DNA from: an uncultured delta proteobacterium
Lineage (GTDB): Bacteria; Myxococcota_A; Polyangia; Fen-1088
Length of the DNA stretch: 64,000 nt
NCBI GenBank assembly: GCA_963767925.1
Contig: CAVYGB010000002.1
Coordinates: 2,192,761-2,256,760, forward strand
Reading direction: 5' to 3'
Position numbers: made by a program. Positions 39,001 to 48,000 of the stretch are shown here, in pieces (the first letter of the stretch is position 1; each line of letters starts with the position of its first letter).

Positions 39001-42000
39001 ACCTGCGCCAGCCGGGCCGAGGCGCGAAGCTCGTCGAGGAAGGACCATCCATCCATCAACGGCATCATGAGGTCGAGCAGGATGAGGTCCGGCAACCGCT
39101 CCGCGGCGGCCAGGTACTCGAGCGCGCGTGGCGCGTCGTTCAGCCCCACCGTCTCGAACCCGTCGTCCTCGAGCACCTCCCGCACCGCTTCACAGATCTC
39201 CCAGTCGTCATCCAGCACGAGCACCAGCCGCCGCGGCGAGTCCGCCGCCGCCAGCGGGATCTCGGCCGTTTGCTTCAGAGCCTCTGACACCGGCGCGTTG
39301 TCCATCGGCCCGGAAAGCTGGGTTCGCGGCGGCGCTCGTACAAGATGCGACAACCCGATTGGCCGAGAATCGAGGACACCATGGGCCACGACATCCGCGC
39401 GATCGAGGAACGAGCCTTCGCCGCCTGGCCCGCCGAGCAGGTCCGCGCCCTGGGCCCCTGGCGCTTCCGCAGCACCCGCGGCGTCACCCACCGGGGCAAC
39501 TCCGTCTGGCCCGACGGCCTCGCCGGCATCCCCTCGCTGGACGCCGCCATCGAAGCCGCCGAAGCCTTCTACGCCGACCGCGCCTTGCCCGCGCAGTTCC
39601 AGGTCACCCCCCTGGCCCCACCCGGCCTCGACCGCGCCCTGCAAGCCCGCCGCTACACCCCCGGCGTCTCCGTAGCCGTCCAGGTCGCCGCCGCCAGCGC
39701 CGTGCCCCCGGCGCCCCGGCCCGGATCCTTCAGTCGGACGATGTCCGAGGCCTGGTTCACGGTCTCCGGTCGGCTGGGCCGCTACGCCAAGGTCCCGGAG
39801 ATCTACGCCGCCCTGCTGGCCCGGATCGGCCCCCGCGCCGTCTTCGCCCAGGCCGAGATCGATGGTGAAGTCGCCGCAGTCGGGCTCGGCGTCGTCGACC
39901 GGCCGTGGCTGGGGATTTCCAGCATGCTCACGCTTCCTTCCCACCGGGGCCGCGGTCTGGGCCAGGCCGTGCTCAGCGCCCTCGCCGCCGCCGCCCGACA
40001 GGAGGGTTGCGACCACCTCTACCTGCAGGTCGACCGCGACAACGCCCCCGCCCTGGCCCTGTACGCCCGCTGCGGGTTCGAGGAGGTTTACGGCTACCAC
40101 TATCGCGAGCGGGAAGTCTGAGGCGCGCCGCCCCTCAGACCGGTGGGTGGCGCTCGCTGCGGGTCGCCGGAGCCGCCGGCCCATCGGGCGCCCGGTTGTG
40201 GCGCGCCGCCCGCCCCAGCAGCCATCCCCCGCTGATCCGGCTCCCAGCCGTACGCAGCGTGCGCGGCAAGAGCCCGGAGGTCGCGCGCATGGCCCGCTCC
40301 GCCCGCCGGAACCGGCGCTCGGCCCGCCCGTCCCAGTGGACGCCGAGCTGGTCGCGTATCCGCGGGGGCGTCATCCCCAGCGTGAACAGCCGCTGCAGCG
40401 AGAGCAGCGGCCGCAACGGCACGTGCAACGCCAGCGGAAACGTCGGCGCGAGAATGAACCCCGCGAGCTCCCGCCCCACCTCCGTGACGTCGAGCTTGTC
40501 GATCGTCTCGCGGACGTAGGCCTCGAAAGCCGCGAGGGTGGCCGGCTGATCGGCGCGGCGGATGCCGAACACCTCGGCGACCCTGGTCATCTCCTGGTAG
40601 TAGGTCTCCCAATCCGCCGCGGAGAGCGGCCCGACCAGCCGCGTGTAGCAGAGCAGGGCGGTGTCGACCAAGGTGGCGTGGACCCAGAGCAGGTTGGCCG
40701 GGTCGTTGGCCCGGTAGGTCGCCCCGGTGACGTGCTCGTGCATGCGATGAATCCGCGCCCCGACGTTGCGCGCGAGCGTCTCGCTGCCAAAGACCACCCC
40801 GGAGGTCGCCTCCAGGGTGCCGATGAGCCGCCGGAACGGATTGGCTTTGAAGTCGCTGTGGTCTTGCACGGCTTGCGCGACCGGGGCGTGAGCAAGCTGG
40901 AGGAGGAGGGCGCGTCCCGCGCCGATCAGCAAGGCGGGCTCCATGCTGACCCGGCGGATCACGGCGCCTTCGGGGAAGAAGTCGGCCATCGCTGGGCTCG
41001 AGTATGACCCCGCCAGGGGGTGGGGACGAGGCGCGGGGTGTCCGGGCGCTCCTGGCGCGCGGAGACGTCGCTACGGATGGCATCAGCTAGCCCGTGAGAT
41101 CTCAGTACGCGATGGAGGGATGATGATCTGACGGGCGTAGCGCGGCGTGCCGCCCGCCGAAGACTCATCCTGGATGAAGACCGTCTCACTCGACCGCTGC
41201 AGCCAGGACGATCGCCCAGCCTGTATCAACCCAGCGGGTGGTCCCCTTTGGCGTTCCCTCCAGGTACCGCACTCGATTCACCAGCGCTTCATCGAGTCGA
41301 CCGCCATCTTCGCTGCTCGCGTCCTTCGCTGCAACCACCCAGGCGACGTCTGTCGTGGTGATCACTCGAGGGCGGAACCCGCCGTCTCCGCCGTCGATGC
41401 GGATGCCACCGCTGGTGCGCTCCAGGATCCGGCAGCGACGCCCGTCTCGTTCTACCCACCCTTGCGGGCCCACCCGCTGAACCACCTCGTCAAGCACGGC
41501 GTCGGCGCGCGCAAGGGTGTCGGGCGGTAGCCGCCGGGAGCTGCCGCGACCCTTTCCCAGGGAACGCCAGGTCGCATGGTCAAGCGCGGGCACGGCCCAT
41601 TGTTCGTCTTCGGCGAGCCAACGGGCTACGCCACAGTACCGCCAGCGGTCTTCGGCTTGTCGGGCCAGGACGAACGCGGTCTCCCCCGGCTGGCGGTCGA
41701 TCACCGGTCTCTCCAGACGGTCCGGCTCGGTGAAGGCGCCCCTCTCGGTCACAACTATGAACAAATGTCCCTCGAAGCGGCCCGTCTTGATCGGAGGCTC
41801 CGAGGCCAGGCCGAAGGCGGTGGCCAACTGGTTCCGGGCGAGGAGTTCGCCGGGTGCGGGGGCGATGCGTTCGGGCGGCACATGGTCTACCAGAAGGGCG
41901 ATGGGGATCATGTCCGCCTTAGCCGGGATGGGCTGATGAGCGGGGTTGTCAGAGCGTAGCTTCCAGCTTCCTTCCTTCTCGACGATGCGCTTGACCTGGT

Positions 42001-45000: not shown

Positions 45001-48000
45001 CGAACGGGTCCGTGCGCCCGCCGGTGGCCAGCGGGGACGGTCTTTCGTGCGGTTGACTGACCCGACCGGCAGTCACCGGGTGGGGCTCGCCCGTTGGGTG
45101 CTCGACACCTCCCGCAAAGCGCGGGATGACGTGCACGTGTAGATGCATCGTGGTTTGGCCGGCTACCAGGCCGGCGCTGAAGCCCACGTTGTAACCAGCC
45201 GGTTGCAGTTCCCGATCGAGCGACGCTTTGACCTCCTCCACCAGCGCCCACAGCGCCCGTTTCTCGGCGTCGGTGGCGTCGAAGTAGCTCGGTACCTCCC
45301 GTCGGGAGACCACCAGGGTGTGGCCCGGTCCGGTCCCGGGACGGTCCCTGACGGCGAAGGCCAGGGCGTTGCTCGCGACCCATTCGGTCTGGGGGATGTC
45401 GAGGAAGCGCGAAGGCATGGCTGGGACCCGCGGTGGCGGCGACAGGTGCCTCGCCCTTCGACCCTCAGCCGCTGGCGAGGGTGGCGTACTCCTCGAACAG
45501 GGGGGCGGACATGGGGTGGGTCACCTTCCAGGTGATTGCGATCGGTCGGTCTCCCGTGTGGCTCTCGTAGACGACCGGGCCAAGGAAGGCGTAGGCGTCG
45601 TCGGGCGATGGGCGGACGAAGAGATAGAAGGTCCAGCCGTTGCCTGGGCTCTCGAGGTAGCGTCTCCCGCTTGAGGTGGTGACGCTGGCTGCCCCCTGGG
45701 TCTCCCAGTGGAAGTGGTCCCGGCTGATGGCGAAGTCGCGGTAGCGGGTCGATGGTGAGAAGTCCTTGCCGGTCTTGTCCAGGGTCACGAACAGCAGCTC
45801 GCGCTTTTGCCCTGGCACGGCGAGGATGCCGCCCTGGGGGACGGAGCCCTTCTTGCCGGGGACCACGTAGCCGACGGCGGCCACAATCTCTCTTCGGCCG
45901 TAGTGGCGATGAAGGGCGAGTGGCCACTCCGGAACCGGATAGATGTCCGACGCGAGCCCCACCCGGTCTTCGAGGACCTCTCGCAGCTCCTCGAACTCCT
46001 CCACGAGACCTGGCCTCGCGGCGAGGTACCGGGCGGTCTCCTCGGCGGCACGCAGCACACCCCGATGGCTGAGCTGGAAGTCCAGCATGTGCATGCGTAT
46101 CCGGTCGCGTGGGCCCGGTTCGATGGTCTCGCCGCGGGCGGCGGTCGCAAGCAGGTCACGGTAGGCACGGAGGCGCTGCGGTTCGTCGGTGTGGGTCAGC
46201 CAGCCTAGCCGGCGACTGACCTCCTCGGTCTCCTCGTCGCCGTAACCGGCTGGGAGCAGCCCGGCGATCTTCCGGATGGTGGTCCATCCGAAGTCGTTGC
46301 GGTTGTAGACGTCCTCGAGCTCCCGGCCCGACTCTTCGAGGAAGTGGCGCAACGAGACCTTGCCGCCTGGGGTCGCGGAGGCCACCTGGCGGAGCTCCTG
46401 GGCCAGACGCTTGGAGCCCCCCGCCAGGGACGCGCGAAGGCTGCGGAGGATGGTCTCGCGCGCGACGGCGTCGAGCTGGACGGCGCAACCGCTGGGTAGA
46501 TAGGGGAAGCCCTCCTCGACGGCGCTGCGGACCTTGGCGCGCGGTAGGCCGGTGAGGGCGGAGAGGATGCCGTCGAAGCGAAACTCCTCCCGGTGTTGCC
46601 CGATGAAGTCCAGGACCAGGCAGGTGCTCTTGCCCTTGTGCATCCGCAGCCCCCGCCCAAGTTGCTGCAGGAACAGGGTGGCGCTCATGGTGGGCCGCAG
46701 GAGCAGCAGGGTGTCGACGAAAGGCAGGTCCACGCCCTCGTTGTAGAGGTCGCAGGTGAACAGCACGTTCACGTCTCGGCTCCGCAGTTGACCTGGGGCG
46801 GCCTCCCGCTCCTTGTCGGGGGAGTCACCGTGGAGGGCCAGGGCTGGCACGCCGGCGGCGGTGAATTGGGCCGCCATGAAGCGGGCGTGTTCGATGCTCA
46901 CGCAGAACCCGAGGGCGCGCACGGAGCGGACGTCCCTCACTCGGCGGCCGAGCTGGTGCAGCACGAGTTGCGCGCGGGCCTGGTGGCCGCTGTAGATGCC
47001 GGCCAGCTCGGCCGCGTCGTACCCTTTGCGCGACCAGCGAACCTTGGTCAGATCGACACCGTCGGACACGCCGTAGTACTCAAACGGCACGAGGAGCTGT
47101 CGCTCGAGGGCATGCCACAGCCGCAACTCCGCCGCGATGTGGCCGTCGAAGTCGGGTAGGAGGGACTTCTCGTCGCTCCGCTCGGGGGTGGCGGTGAGCC
47201 CCACCATCAGGTCGGGCCTGAGCCGGGGTACCACCTTCTGGTAGGAGCTTGCCGGGACGTGGTGGCACTCGTCGACGATGACGTGGCGCCAGTGGTCCTC
47301 GCCGAACCGATCCACCAGATCTCCCGCTGCGACGCTCTGGATGGTCGCGAAGAGGTGCTCGAATCGTTCCGGCCCGTCCGCGCCACTGAGGAGCTCGCCG
47401 AACGAAGCGTCCTGGAGCACGTGACGGAAGGTGTCCCGGGCCTGGACCAGGATCTCGCGGCGATGGGCCAGGAAGAGCAAACGCGGTCGGAGACCGGCCT
47501 CATCGCACACGCGGCTGTAGTCGAAGGCGGCGATGACGGTCTTGCCGGTGCCGGTGGCGGCGACCACCAGGTTGCGCCGGCGGCCGTGGAGAGTACGCTC
47601 CGCGGCGAGGCGGTCGAGGATCTCCTCCTGAAAAGGGTAGGGACGGAGGCCAATCAGCGAAAGCGAGGGTGTCGCCGCGTCGTCGGCCTGTGTCGCCAGG
47701 AGGGCAGCGCGCAGGCGGGAACGGGACTGTTCGTCCGCGGGATCGAAATCCTCGAACTCCGGGTCGTTCCAGAGGGTATCGAACGTGCCCTCGAACTTCT
47801 CGATGACGTGTGGCAGGTCGGCGGCGCACACCTTGACGGTCCATTCGTGACCGCTGCTCAGCGCGGTGGCGGTGAAGTTCGCCGAGCCGATGTAGGCGGT
47901 GCTCAGGCCGGTGTCGCGGTGGAAGAGCCACGCCTTGGCGTGCAGGCGGGTGCGCTGGATGTCGTGGGACACCTTGATCCTCACTCCCGGCAGCCGGCCC

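What a model noticed while it worked through the whole genome (the two positions that open the first line are those of the whole stretch)
41186..45418. SauUSI-like nuclease-helicase carrying an N-terminal HIT domain and an embedded LexA/lambda-cI-type self-cleavage module [...]
g02376 (1410 aa) is HIT hydrolase + PLD/HKD nuclease + SF2 helicase (34% identical over 620 aa to its neighbour g02377, a SauUSI-type type IV restriction enzyme), then a SauUSI-like coupler with a winged helix, a B3-like DNA-binding barrel, an S24 (LexA/UmuD/cI) domain, and only then an SRA-like modified-cytosine reader like the SauUSI target-recognition domain. The Ala-Gly cleavage site (A1059-G1060), Ser nucleophile (GDSM, S1095) and Lys base (K1143) are invariant in relatives, so RecA-filament-stimulated self-cleavage would cut the nuclease-helicase motor loose from its modification reader: a modification-dependent restriction enzyme with a built-in DNA-damage/phage-replication switch. 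He [...]
Evidence so far: Pfam: HIT 13-101, ResIII/DEAD 337-493, Helicase_C 569-667, Peptidase_S24 1056-1169. PADLOC: mREase_IV 5.6e-83 (g02376), 6.2e-222 (g02377); GmrSD-like and WYL neighbours. BLASTP g02376 vs g02377: 34% over 111-731 / 77-706, nothing beyond. 103 full-length relatives (52-67% id): HxHxHVIPR, FHPK..GSSN, ATGLGKT, DExHH, QQLGRGLR, AAG, GxSMxGG, KR kept in >=95%; invariant in 33-row alignment A1. AlphaFold2 of 690-1410: pLDDT 83.7; Foldseek: lambda repressor and LexA C-domains with cleavage-site region and their RecA-filament complexes, 8gmu_A E 2e-6 TMt 0.76, 1kca_A TMt 0.82, 8gms_A, UmuD 8gmt_A. Tail 1181-1410 alone: pLDDT 94.4; VIA search of 48,161 chains: rank 1 SauUSI 7clg_B 803-953 (Z 8.0, rms [...]
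(Added by a program. Inside this text positions count along the whole contig: contig position 2,192,761 is position 1 of the stretch shown here. "Call 12" and the like, gene names such as g00115 and contig names such as C1 are that model's own, and its searches are not shown. The text may have been shortened before it was handed on; [...] marks where a part breaks off. The agent that wrote the report below was given it as the finding of a first reader that could run no searches.)

Follow-up and report, generated by a model that had tools for sequence, protein, structure and literature searches.

The report
Restriction enzyme with LexA-type self-cutting hinge
A very large DNA-cutting defence enzyme carries, between its motor and its DNA-reading end, the same self-cutting module that the SOS repressor LexA uses to sense DNA damage, so the cell's damage signal could split the enzyme in two; this has not been tested.

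Summary
ORF 41186-45418 (-) encodes a 1410-aa protein with these modules: HIT, PLD nuclease, SF2 helicase, SauUSI-like coupler, winged helix, B3-like barrel, S24 autopeptidase and SRA-like reader. I also find an unassigned 115-aa C-terminal domain.

The S24 module is well supported. Pfam scores 35.8 bits, VIA gives Z 14.0 to LexA, and Foldseek gives E 3.5e-7 to lambda cI on a RecA filament. Ala-Gly, Ser and Lys are kept in 120 of 120 close relatives. Across 138 wider S24 segments the residue before the cut is Ala (118) or Cys (15), the two residues used by LexA/cI and by UmuD.

New findings:
- S24 is an optional cassette. It sits before two different readers (SRA-like tail or DUF3427) and is missing from otherwise intact relatives.
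- The gene has no conserved partner (0 of 78 loci repeat the tandem SauUSI paralogue).
- Its distribution is patchy: 0 of 40 near relatives and 45 of 400 genomes of the phylum carry it.

Self-cleavage, a RecA* trigger and the outcome (off or on) remain inferences. The B3 call and the "modified cytosine" call rest on middling fold scores. I found no paper describing such a fusion. Verdict: a new variant of a known kind.

The parts
41186..45418 (-). Whole gene, 1410 aa (P0001), including the stop codon
   Evidence: one copy in the 9.34-Mb genome
45116..45382 (-). HIT domain, residues 13-101; HLHVHVIPR with H92/H94/H96
   Evidence: Pfam PF01230 3.7e-16. PDB phmmer hits to HIT proteins and Ap4A phosphorylase, 3.7e-12 to 4e-11. 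His triad kept in 118-120 of 120.
44519..44998 (-). PLD-type nuclease, about residues 141-300; H240-x-K242 and GSSN 257-260
   Evidence: Aligned to the SauUSI nuclease in 7clg_A. Weak Pfam PLDc_2. Motifs kept in 120/120.
43349..44413 (-). SF2 DExH helicase-like ATPase, residues 336-690 (GLGKT, DEVH, QQLGRG)
   Evidence: Pfam ResIII 3.9e-34 and Helicase_C 4.7e-12. 7clg_A alignment. Motifs kept in 120/120.
42983..43348 (-). Helical coupler, residues 691-812
   Evidence: VIA 7clg_B 619-806: Z 8.0, rmsd 3.5, 117 aligned, spanning model residues 49-248. The score is middling.
42713..42982 (-). Winged-helix domain, residues 813-902
   Evidence: VIA winged-helix matches at Z 7-8 over model residues 124-213. 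This is the least conserved module.
42293..42613 (-). B3-like beta barrel, residues 936-1042 (tentative)
   Evidence: VIA: R.NgoAVII B3 4rd5_A Z 7.5, rmsd 3.1, 99 aligned; FUS3 B3 Z 6.9. Foldseek gives B3 domains only at E 0.36-0.56. 22 near-invariant residues.
41879..42271 (-). S24 (LexA/UmuD/cI-type) autopeptidase with its cleavage-site region, residues 1050-1180; Ser1095 (42134-42136), Lys1143 (41990-41992)
   Evidence: Pfam PF00717 35.8 bits. VIA Z 14.0/13.2/12.4 to LexA, lambda cI and LexA. Foldseek: all 35 hits at E <= 1e-3 are LexA, cI or UmuD. GDSM aligns to the GDSM of M. tuberculosis LexA, and to GDAM in its S160A mutant.
42239..42244 (-). Predicted scissile bond, Ala1059-Gly1060
   Evidence: RVAAG lies 35 residues before Ser1095. 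A and G kept in 120/120. Across 138 segments: Ala 118, Cys 15, Gly 131.
41552..41860 (-). SRA-like beta-barrel reader, residues 1187-1289
   Evidence: VIA: SauUSI TRD 7clg_B 803-953 Z 8.1, then PvuRts1I, SUVH5, ScoMcrA, AbaSI, AspBHI, LpnPI, MspJI, TagI and UHRF1 at Z 5.0-6.6. No Pfam hit. Atlas gives leads only, scores 0.84-0.88.
41189..41533 (-). C-terminal alpha/beta domain, residues 1296-1410, fold unassigned
   Evidence: pLDDT above 90. Best VIA Z is 4.0 and this part was barely tested. Atlas 0.77. Absent from 15 of 78 relatives' genes, which stop just after the SRA part.
45465..48605 (-). Upstream neighbour P0002: a canonical SauUSI-type enzyme (PLD, SF2, DUF3427)
   Evidence: No terminator-like site between the two genes. 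The tandem is not repeated in 0 of 78 relatives' loci.
49394..51331 (-). GmrSD-like gene in a dip of G+C content (56-58%)
   Evidence: Pfam GmrSD_N 5.4e-30; composition
52048..54275 (+). Two overlapping WYL/WCX regulator genes (the second with HTH_PafC), divergent from the restriction genes

Best explanation
P0001 is a single-chain, ATP-driven restriction enzyme of the SauUSI (type IV, modification-dependent) lineage. A PLD nuclease and an SF2 translocase are joined through a helical coupler, a winged helix and a B3-like barrel to a C-terminal SRA-like base reader.

I propose that the Ser1095/Lys1143 dyad cuts the chain at Ala1059-Gly1060. As in LexA, lambda cI and UmuD, this cut would be slow on its own and be speeded up by RecA filaments on single-stranded DNA. 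The cut would part the HIT-nuclease-motor-barrel fragment (1-1059) from the S24-reader fragment (1060-1410).

So the most likely result is loss of reader-licensed restriction when the cell has DNA damage. That would be a built-in restriction alleviation, or fuse, against self-restriction.

Shown here: architecture, folds, conserved residues, modularity and distribution.
Inferred: the cleavage itself, its trigger, and its sign.
For: 1. SauUSI kinship. phmmer 7clg_A 4.7e-73 over residues 158-684. PADLOC mREase_IV 5.6e-83. 34% identity to the adjacent canonical SauUSI-type gene.

2. A complete S24 module. Pfam is above its cut-off. VIA gives Z 14.0 to LexA and 13.2 to a lambda cI fragment that includes the cleavage-site region. 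Foldseek gives 35 of 35 hits at E <= 1e-3 to LexA, cI or UmuD, among them their RecA-filament complexes. The catalytic Ser aligns with Ser160 of M. tuberculosis LexA.

3. Selection on the cleavage chemistry. A-G, S and K are kept in 120/120. In 138 segments the counts are P1 Ala 118 or Cys 15, P1' Gly 131, Ser 134, Lys 133. From established knowledge (recalled), Ala-Gly is the site in LexA and cI, and Cys-Gly the site in UmuD.

4. It occurs with the SRA-like tail and, in a sister clade, with DUF3427 (P0195, P0215, P0201). It is missing from P0181, P0187, P0208, P0150 and P0155, where the barrel joins the tail directly and the PLD and SF2 motifs are intact.

5. RecA is present (two loci), as is a separate LexA-like gene.

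6. Defence context. In the window the gene sits with a SauUSI paralogue, GmrSD and WYL regulators. Eight of 27 relatives' loci have a PADLOC-positive gene among the nearest ORFs (no control set was run). The distribution is patchy: 0 of 40 near relatives and 45 of 400 genomes of the phylum. Several copies are split.

7. Direction of the effect. [quoted passage not shown] 5mC recognition starts translocation (bioRxiv 10.1101/2025.10.16.682607, abstract).
Against: - There is no experiment of any kind.
- S24 domains are also dimerisation modules, and some LexA-like proteins are processed without RecA (IrvR; abstract in the search listing).
- The S24 module is embedded between two folded domains and is modelled as packed against the tail (pTM 0.89). 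Access for a RecA filament is therefore uncertain.
- An off-switch driven by RecA* would also fire when the enzyme cuts phage DNA, which seems to work against defence.
- The N-fragment keeps two putative DNA-binding domains (winged helix and barrel), so it need not be inert after cleavage.
- A few lineages keep a dead S24 (P0159: Tyr-Gly, Ser to Ala, Lys to Arg) or a changed P1' Gly (L049, P0196, P0267, P0174, P0238). The enzyme can evidently do without cleavage.
- In most relatives the neighbours look like housekeeping genes.
- No LexA-box-like site was found beyond chance.
Confidence: 0.5

Rival explanations
1. On-switch. The reader and S24 part holds the nuclease-motor in check. RecA*-stimulated cleavage, caused by phage replication or by induction of a resident prophage, frees a HIT-PLD-helicase-barrel fragment. 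That fragment then degrades DNA without needing a modified base, which amounts to an abortive-infection or anti-induction response.
For: Every known S24 cleavage turns a response on: LexA and cI derepress, and UmuD becomes UmuD' (established knowledge, recalled). The N-fragment keeps a winged helix and a B3-like barrel. The apo SauUSI structure is described as an inactive state that needs a large rearrangement (PMC7913695, passages). Protein-database relatives that end just after the barrel exist (P0167, P0184, P0246). They would be natural look-alikes of the N-fragment.
Against: The forms that end after the barrel are scattered singletons nested among full-length forms. Split or frameshifted copies are common in genome loci, so these forms may be artefacts.
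Confidence: 0.25
2. The S24 module cleaves, but the trigger is not RecA*. Either cleavage follows engagement of the reader with its target DNA, as a single-turnover release of the motor from the bound reader, or it is slow constitutive maturation.
For: In SauUSI, translocation displaces the TRD from the site (abstract). A LexA-like protein processed without RecA is on record (IrvR, listing abstract). The S24 module packs against the tail in the model (pTM 0.89).
Against: The closest structural matches are the RecA-responsive proteins, including their filament complexes. Obligatory maturation is unlikely, because lineages with a dead or missing S24 keep intact PLD and SF2 motifs.
Confidence: 0.12
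3. The protein is not a defence enzyme. It would be an SOS-tuned DNA-repair nuclease-helicase, with a RadD-like motor, an end-processing HIT domain and damage-sensing S24. In that case the SRA-like tail reads lesions or strand marks.
For: NCBIfam RadD 3.6e-30 and other repair helicases appear among the hits, though all are far below their cut-offs. Neighbours in most relatives are housekeeping-like (M16 peptidase, LysR, amidohydrolase). No conserved defence partner was found.
Against: The best matches by far are SauUSI and mREase_IV. The readers are the two kinds used by modification-dependent restriction enzymes. The gene was not found in 40 of 40 near relatives and was found in only 45 of 400 genomes of the phylum. 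Copies are often split. Here it sits between a SauUSI paralogue, GmrSD and WYL regulators.
Confidence: 0.08
4. The S24 domain is only a structural or dimerising spacer and is never cut.
For: LexA and cI C-domains dimerise (established knowledge). A few lineages have lost the dyad yet keep the domain.
Against: Ser, Lys and the Ala/Cys-Gly pair are kept in about 96% of 138 segments at 30-67% overall identity. A spacer would not require that.
Confidence: 0.05

Closest known systems
SauUSI (Staphylococcus aureus type IV ATP-dependent restriction enzyme; PDB 7CLG; PADLOC mREase_IV)
   Same: Same order of PLD HxK nuclease, SF2 DExH ATPase, helical coupler and C-terminal SRA-fold reader. phmmer 4.7e-73 over nuclease and ATPase. 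Coupler Z 8.0 and reader Z 8.1.
   Different: It lies on a long branch apart from the canonical neighbour P0002. Its specificity is unknown.
LexA / lambda cI / UmuD (peptidase family S24)
   Same: Same fold, Ser-Lys dyad, and Ala(Cys)-Gly site about 35 residues upstream of the Ser on a cleavage-site strand.
   Different: In those proteins the module is C-terminal and follows a small DNA-binding domain or a short peptide. Here it is internal to a 1410-aa enzyme. The part cut off on the N side is a nuclease-helicase, and a reader follows on the C side. RecA dependence is untested.
Restriction alleviation of type I enzymes (ClpXP proteolysis of EcoKI HsdR)
   Same: Concept only: proteolytic shut-down of a restriction enzyme to avoid autoimmunity (PMC11109961, abstract start in the search listing).
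   Different: That process uses an external protease acting on enzyme stalled on unmodified host DNA. Here the protease would be part of the enzyme itself, and the enzyme is of the modification-dependent kind.
AmaNI (SRA-HNH modification-dependent enzyme with a caspase domain)
   Same: A modification-dependent restriction enzyme fused to a peptidase domain. The authors presume that it regulates restriction by cleavage or mediates abortive infection (PMC6765204, passage read).
   Different: The peptidase is a caspase, not S24. The nuclease differs and there is no motor. No cleavage site within the enzyme is defined.
R.NgoAVII / BfiI / EcoRII-N (B3-like DNA-binding pseudobarrels joined to PLD nucleases)
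   Same: A PLD nuclease combined with a B3-like barrel (VIA Z 7.5 to 4rd5_A).
   Different: The similarity is weak (Foldseek E 0.56). The domain order and the fused motor differ.

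Membership tests
SauUSI-type type IV restriction enzyme | N-terminal PLD nuclease with an HxK motif | tested here: met
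   H240-x-K242 and GSSN align to the 7clg_A nuclease; kept in 120/120
SauUSI-type type IV restriction enzyme | SF2 DExH helicase-like ATPase following the nuclease | tested here: met
   ResIII 3.9e-34, Helicase_C 4.7e-12; motifs kept in 120/120
SauUSI-type type IV restriction enzyme | Alpha-helical coupler between ATPase and reader | tested here: inconclusive
   VIA Z 8.0, 117 aligned to 7clg_B 619-806; Foldseek no hit at E <= 0.001
SauUSI-type type IV restriction enzyme | C-terminal DUF3427 / SRA-fold target recognition domain | tested here: inconclusive
   No Pfam DUF3427 hit at E <= 0.01. Fold likeness Z 8.1 to 7clg_B 803-953, and a run of SRA domains at Z 5.0-6.6. Sister-clade relatives do carry DUF3427.
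SauUSI-type type IV restriction enzyme | ATP-dependent cleavage of DNA bearing 5mC or 5hmC; dimer through the PLD domains | not testable with these tools
   needs biochemistry
Peptidase S24 (LexA/UmuD/cI) | Family profile above the curated cut-off, and the family fold | tested here: met
   PF00717 35.8 bits against 23.3; VIA Z 14.0; Foldseek E 3.5e-7
Peptidase S24 (LexA/UmuD/cI) | Ser nucleophile and Lys general base | tested here: met
   S1095 in GDSM and K1143 in VKR. Ser aligns to the mutated Ser160 of M. tuberculosis LexA. Kept in 120/120; 134 and 133 of 138.
Peptidase S24 (LexA/UmuD/cI) | Ala-Gly or Cys-Gly scissile bond on a strand upstream of the Ser | tested here: met
   RVAAG 1056-1060, 35 residues before S1095. 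The cleavage-site region is covered by the alignments to 2ho0_A, 1jhc_A and 3k2z_B. P1 is Ala 118 or Cys 15 of 138.
Peptidase S24 (LexA/UmuD/cI) | Self-cleavage, stimulated by RecA-ssDNA filaments | not testable with these tools
HIT superfamily | HxHxHxx histidine triad and family profile | tested here: met
   HLHVHVIPR 92-100; PF01230 60 bits against 21.5; nearest solved structures are HIT proteins and Ap4A phosphorylase
HIT superfamily | Nucleotide hydrolase or transferase activity and its substrate | not testable with these tools
   needs an enzyme assay
B3 / EcoRII-N-like DNA-binding pseudobarrel | Seven-stranded pseudobarrel fold | tested here: inconclusive
   VIA Z 7.5 and 7.3 to NgoAVII, 6.9 to FUS3; Foldseek E 0.36-0.56

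The most novel reading that the evidence does not exclude
This would be the first restriction enzyme wired directly to the SOS signal. RecA filaments would cut the enzyme at an internal LexA-type hinge and so switch its mode within minutes, without any change in transcription. The switch could be a fuse that stops self-restriction, or a release of a reader-independent DNA shredder. The HIT head tends to decay in the same lineages that lose S24. It may be part of the same sensing layer, for example by acting on a stress nucleotide such as Ap4A.
Probability: 0.4. Interest if true: 0.85.

Novelty: new variant of a known kind. Interest (0 to 1): 0.7.

Why it matters
It is an open question how restriction and other DNA-cutting defences avoid killing their own cell. 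Proteolytic restriction alleviation is known only for type I enzymes, and there it uses an external protease.

An autoprotease built into a type IV enzyme would be a new and very direct solution, or else a new kind of damage-triggered effector. It would also extend the use of the LexA/cI/UmuD self-cleavage module from small regulators to a large enzyme.

The family is common enough in soil bacteria to be worth a bench test: 123 genome loci in one scan, and 45 of 400 genomes of the phylum. The predicted cut site, dyad and fragments make that test simple. A cleavable hinge between a motor-nuclease and a swappable reader could also be useful as an engineering part.

Tried and rejected
- **Complex prediction.** I submitted two copies of the genome's own RecA core with ATP, together with the S24 module. 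The verdict was "no answer", score 0.00. This is evidence neither way.
- **LexA box.** I searched the window with a Myxococcus-type consensus recalled from memory. It gave 2 matches at up to 2 mismatches against 1.61 expected. No signal.
- **Promoter and terminator scan of 40800-52300.** No promoter-like sites. Two terminator-like sites against 5.6 expected, neither between the genes.
- **Expression.** No RNA holder is listed. One soil DNA run holds 0.05 of the words, and I did not lay it.
- **Mobility.** Plasmids gave 3 weak partial hits to the coupler region only. Phages gave none. The window has no tRNA and no Rfam family.
- **Conserved partner gene.** The best-shared neighbour family occurs in 13 of 78 loci and is housekeeping-like. 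tblastn of eleven window neighbour ORFs gave no second SauUSI paralogue in 78 loci, and a single WYL hit in L010.
- **Forms that end after the barrel or after S24.** I considered them as natural look-alikes of the cleavage products. I do not rely on them, because split or frameshifted copies are frequent in genome loci and contigs could not be inspected.
- **HIT and S24 lost together.** The raw table is striking. Phylogenetically independent pairs are too few: 5 pairs, median p 0.5.
- **C-terminal domain 1296-1410.** No fold or family was found.
- **Literature.** Searches, and a term search inside PMC6765204, found no description of an S24 module inside a restriction enzyme. Subscription-only papers are not covered.

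Full report
**What is there**

The window has an open frame at 41186-45418 on the minus strand. It starts with ATG and encodes 1410 residues. Its N-terminus lines up with that of its relatives, so the start is sound.

A second long frame lies 46 bp upstream on the same strand, at 45465-48605 (1046 aa). No terminator-like site lies between the two.

Further upstream are a GmrSD-like gene (49394-51331) in a dip of G+C content to 56-58%, and a weak REase-like ORF. Two WYL/WCX regulator genes run divergently; the second has a PafC-type helix-turn-helix. They are followed by an ADP-ribosylglycohydrolase gene.

The genome held for this window is 9.34 Mb in 13 contigs and has one copy of the gene.

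All of them reproduce.
- Pfam gives HIT 13-101, ResIII 337-493, DEAD 340-493, Helicase_C 569-667 and Peptidase_S24 1056-1169, which scores 35.8 bits against a cut-off of 23.3.
- PADLOC gives mREase_IV at 5.6e-83, and 6.5e-222 for the neighbour.
- BLASTP between the two genes gives 34% identity over residues 111-731 and nothing further.
- Against solved structures, the best sequence match is SauUSI (7clg_A, 4.7e-73, residues 158-684). After it come RadD, a type I R subunit and HIT proteins.
- Every motif sits at the stated residue.
- In a MAFFT alignment of the query with 119 relatives of 52-67% identity, the HIT triad, the PLD HxK and GSSN, the helicase motifs, Ala1059-Gly1060, Ser1095 and Lys1143 are kept in 118-120 of 120 rows. 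I left out one 808-aa fragment of the query itself.

**Folds**

I modelled two halves with family alignments.

Residues 1040-1410 gave pLDDT 93.0 and pTM 0.89.
- All 35 Foldseek matches at E <= 0.001 are LexA, lambda cI or UmuD. The best is lambda cI bound to a RecA filament (8gmu_A, E 3.5e-7, TMt 0.75).
- The Foldseek-independent VIA search gave LexA 3k2z_B Z 14.0, the cleavage-site-containing cI fragment 2ho0_A Z 13.2, and LexA 1jhc_A Z 12.4. These alignments begin at model residues 5-9, so they cover the strand that bears Ala-Gly.
- The next distinct fold is the SauUSI reader (7clg_B 803-953; Z 8.1, rmsd 2.7, 88 residues) on residues 1187-1289. It is followed by PvuRts1I, SUVH5, ScoMcrA, AbaSI, AspBHI, LpnPI, MspJI, TagI and UHRF1 SRA domains at Z 5.0-6.6. 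The tool calls such Z values middling. The weight lies in the consistent run of SRA domains.
- The last 115 residues (1296-1410) are confidently folded but found no match.

Residues 690-1045 gave pLDDT 87.9.
- VIA matched the SauUSI coupler (Z 8.0), many winged helices (Z 7-8, residues 813-902) and the B3 domain of R.NgoAVII (Z 7.5, residues 936-1039).
- Foldseek gave nothing at E <= 0.001, and B3 domains only at E 0.36-0.56. I treat the barrel as B3-like only tentatively.

**The S24 module looks catalytically live**

- A phmmer alignment puts GDSM on the GDSM of the M. tuberculosis LexA C-domain, and on GDAM in its S160A mutant.
- I collected 138 S24 segments: the query, 68 genome loci and 69 cluster representatives.
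- The residue before the predicted cut is Ala in 118 and Cys in 15. The residue after it is Gly in 131. The nucleophile is Ser in 134 and the base is Lys in 133.
- All 15 Cys-Gly cases belong to the clade with a DUF3427 reader or its fragments.
- From established knowledge (recalled, not from a call), Ala-Gly is the bond cut in LexA and lambda cI, and Cys-Gly the bond cut in UmuD. The only variation tolerated here is therefore the variation seen among proven self-cleaving proteins.
- A few lineages have lost the chemistry. P0159 has Tyr-Gly, Ser to Ala and Lys to Arg; P0212, P0134 and P0162 are similar. Five others have replaced the Gly.

**The family is modular**

A full scan of 1.84 billion representatives with residues 690-1410 gave 971 hits. 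Pfam and my own module profiles then sorted them.

Architectures that cannot be explained by truncation:
- S24 followed by the SRA-like tail (this gene and most relatives).
- S24 followed by DUF3427, the canonical SauUSI reader (P0195, P0215; P0201 lacks HIT).
- The barrel joined directly to the tail with no S24 (P0181, P0187, P0208, P0150, P0155). These keep intact PLD and helicase motifs.

On a FastTree of the helicase-to-barrel region, the whole family sits on a long branch away from the canonical neighbour. It splits into a DUF3427 clade and an SRA-tail clade, with S24-less forms scattered in both (supports were not printed).

In 78 genome loci:
- 34 have all nine modules in one frame with a stop codon.
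- 15 stop right after the SRA part and lack the last domain.
- About nine carry a further 150-170 residues.
- Several are split into pieces.

Because of those split copies, I do not rely on database proteins that end right after the barrel or right after S24.

**Distribution and context**

- One scan of species-representative genomes found 123 loci. They are mostly Myxococcota by record title, with some Acidobacteriota and Planctomycetota MAGs.
- The C-terminal half was not found in any of 40 genomes of the same genus, family or class that were searched.
- It was found in 45 of 400 other genomes sampled from the phylum. Counting the window's own genome, that is 39 of 255 genera.
- None of 78 loci has a second SauUSI-type gene beside it. 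None shares the window's GmrSD, and one shares a WYL gene.
- No neighbour family is shared by more than 13 loci, and those that are shared look like housekeeping genes.
- Among 100 flanking ORFs from 27 loci, 11 ORFs in 8 loci hit PADLOC at E <= 1e-8: DpdE/ZorD-like, type I methylase with SoFic, DruA, DndB, NERD-helicase, PDC-M26A, a kinase model and a weak REase_II.
- I ran no control set. Kinase-type hits are likely to be generic.
- Plasmid and phage collections hold no real relative.

Taken together, this is a stand-alone, horizontally scattered gene of the defence kind, not a core repair gene.

**How it most likely works**

The nuclease-motor core should work as in SauUSI.

The S24 module supplies a scissile bond exactly between the part that moves and cuts and the part that reads. 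RecA is present, at two loci, along with a separate LexA-like gene.

I therefore take self-cleavage at Ala1059-Gly1060, speeded by RecA filaments, as the best reading (about 0.5 for the package).

Of the two possible outcomes I lean toward loss of reader-licensed restriction. That would be a fuse that stops the enzyme when the chromosome is being cut, or a form of restriction alleviation during repair. Type IV enzymes are known to attack their own chromosome when a methylase arrives (McrBC; PMC2614495, abstract in the search listing).

The opposite outcome, release of a reader-independent shredder, is a serious rival (0.25). Every known S24 cleavage switches a response on, and the N-fragment keeps two putative DNA-binding domains.

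Non-RecA triggers, a repair role and a purely structural S24 are less likely, for the reasons given under rival explanations.

**What is new and what is not**

The parts are all known. I found no paper that describes an S24 module inside a restriction enzyme (searches; term search in PMC6765204). The nearest idea in print is a caspase domain on the SRA-HNH enzyme AmaNI. Its authors presumed that it regulates restriction by cleavage (PMC6765204, passage).

Two earlier notes of this scan describe the same family in other genomes and read it the same way. They are AI notes, not independent evidence.

I file this as a new variant of a known kind.

**Limits**

- Nothing here is experimental.
- The structure models could not be inspected for the distance between the scissile bond and the dyad.
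- The complex test with RecA gave no verdict.

Noticed in passing
family-wide (P0150, P0155, P0159, P0181, P0187, P0208, P0232, L071, L076 against the rest): HIT and S24 tend to be lost together. I examined 192 sequences that span PLD to reader. Nine of the 12 with S24 missing or dead also lack an intact His triad. Only 10 of the 180 with a live S24 lack it. PLD and helicase motifs stay intact in the S24-less or dead-S24 forms that I checked: P0150, P0155, P0159, P0181, P0187 and P0208. A test on phylogenetically independent pairs has too few events: 5 pairs, median p 0.5.
   Followed up: partly
window 45465-48605 with 41186-45418: A canonical SauUSI-type gene sits 46 bp upstream of the S24-bearing one, on the same strand. 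This tandem is not seen in any of 78 relatives' loci. Two readers of different kinds may widen the range of modifications that are covered.
   Followed up: partly
window 52048-55469 (+): A PafBC-like pair of WYL/WCX regulator genes (the second with HTH_PafC) is followed by an ADP-ribosylglycohydrolase gene. They run divergently from the restriction genes. WYL regulators of this kind respond to DNA damage in other bacteria (recalled).
   Followed up: no
window 49000-51000: G+C content falls to 56-58% over the GmrSD-like gene, against 67-73% around it. This suggests a separate, recent acquisition.
   Followed up: no
L016 (463-aa frame), L061 (469-aa frame); P0171, P0204, P0257: Short in-frame derivatives join HIT directly to S24-SRA-CTD or to (B3-)SRA-CTD, with the nuclease and motor deleted. 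Two of them are in complete Sorangium chromosomes. They could be remnants, or a minimal HIT-plus-reader protein.
   Followed up: no
L020, L021, L024, L027, L032, L042, L072, L079, L080; P0079-P0081 and others of about 1580-1610 aa: A subgroup carries a further 150-170 residues after the last domain. Pfam gave no hit on this extension in the only member scanned, P0139.
   Followed up: no
L045-L047, L048, L052, L053, L056, L057, L062, L063, L065-L067: Copies in Myxococcus, Pyxidicoccus, Cystobacter, Enhygromyxa and Archangium end with a stop codon 1-8 residues after the SRA-like part. The last domain is therefore optional.
   Followed up: partly
L059, L007, L006, L019, L031, L041, L069 and others: Many relatives' genes are split by stops or frameshifts. 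One example is a 540-aa piece in the complete Anaeromyxobacter oryzae chromosome. These are either pseudogenes or assembly errors.
   Followed up: no
window 24635-29575 (-): A 1646-aa protein combines a Ser/Thr kinase domain, AAA_16, GAF and a histidine kinase.
   Followed up: no
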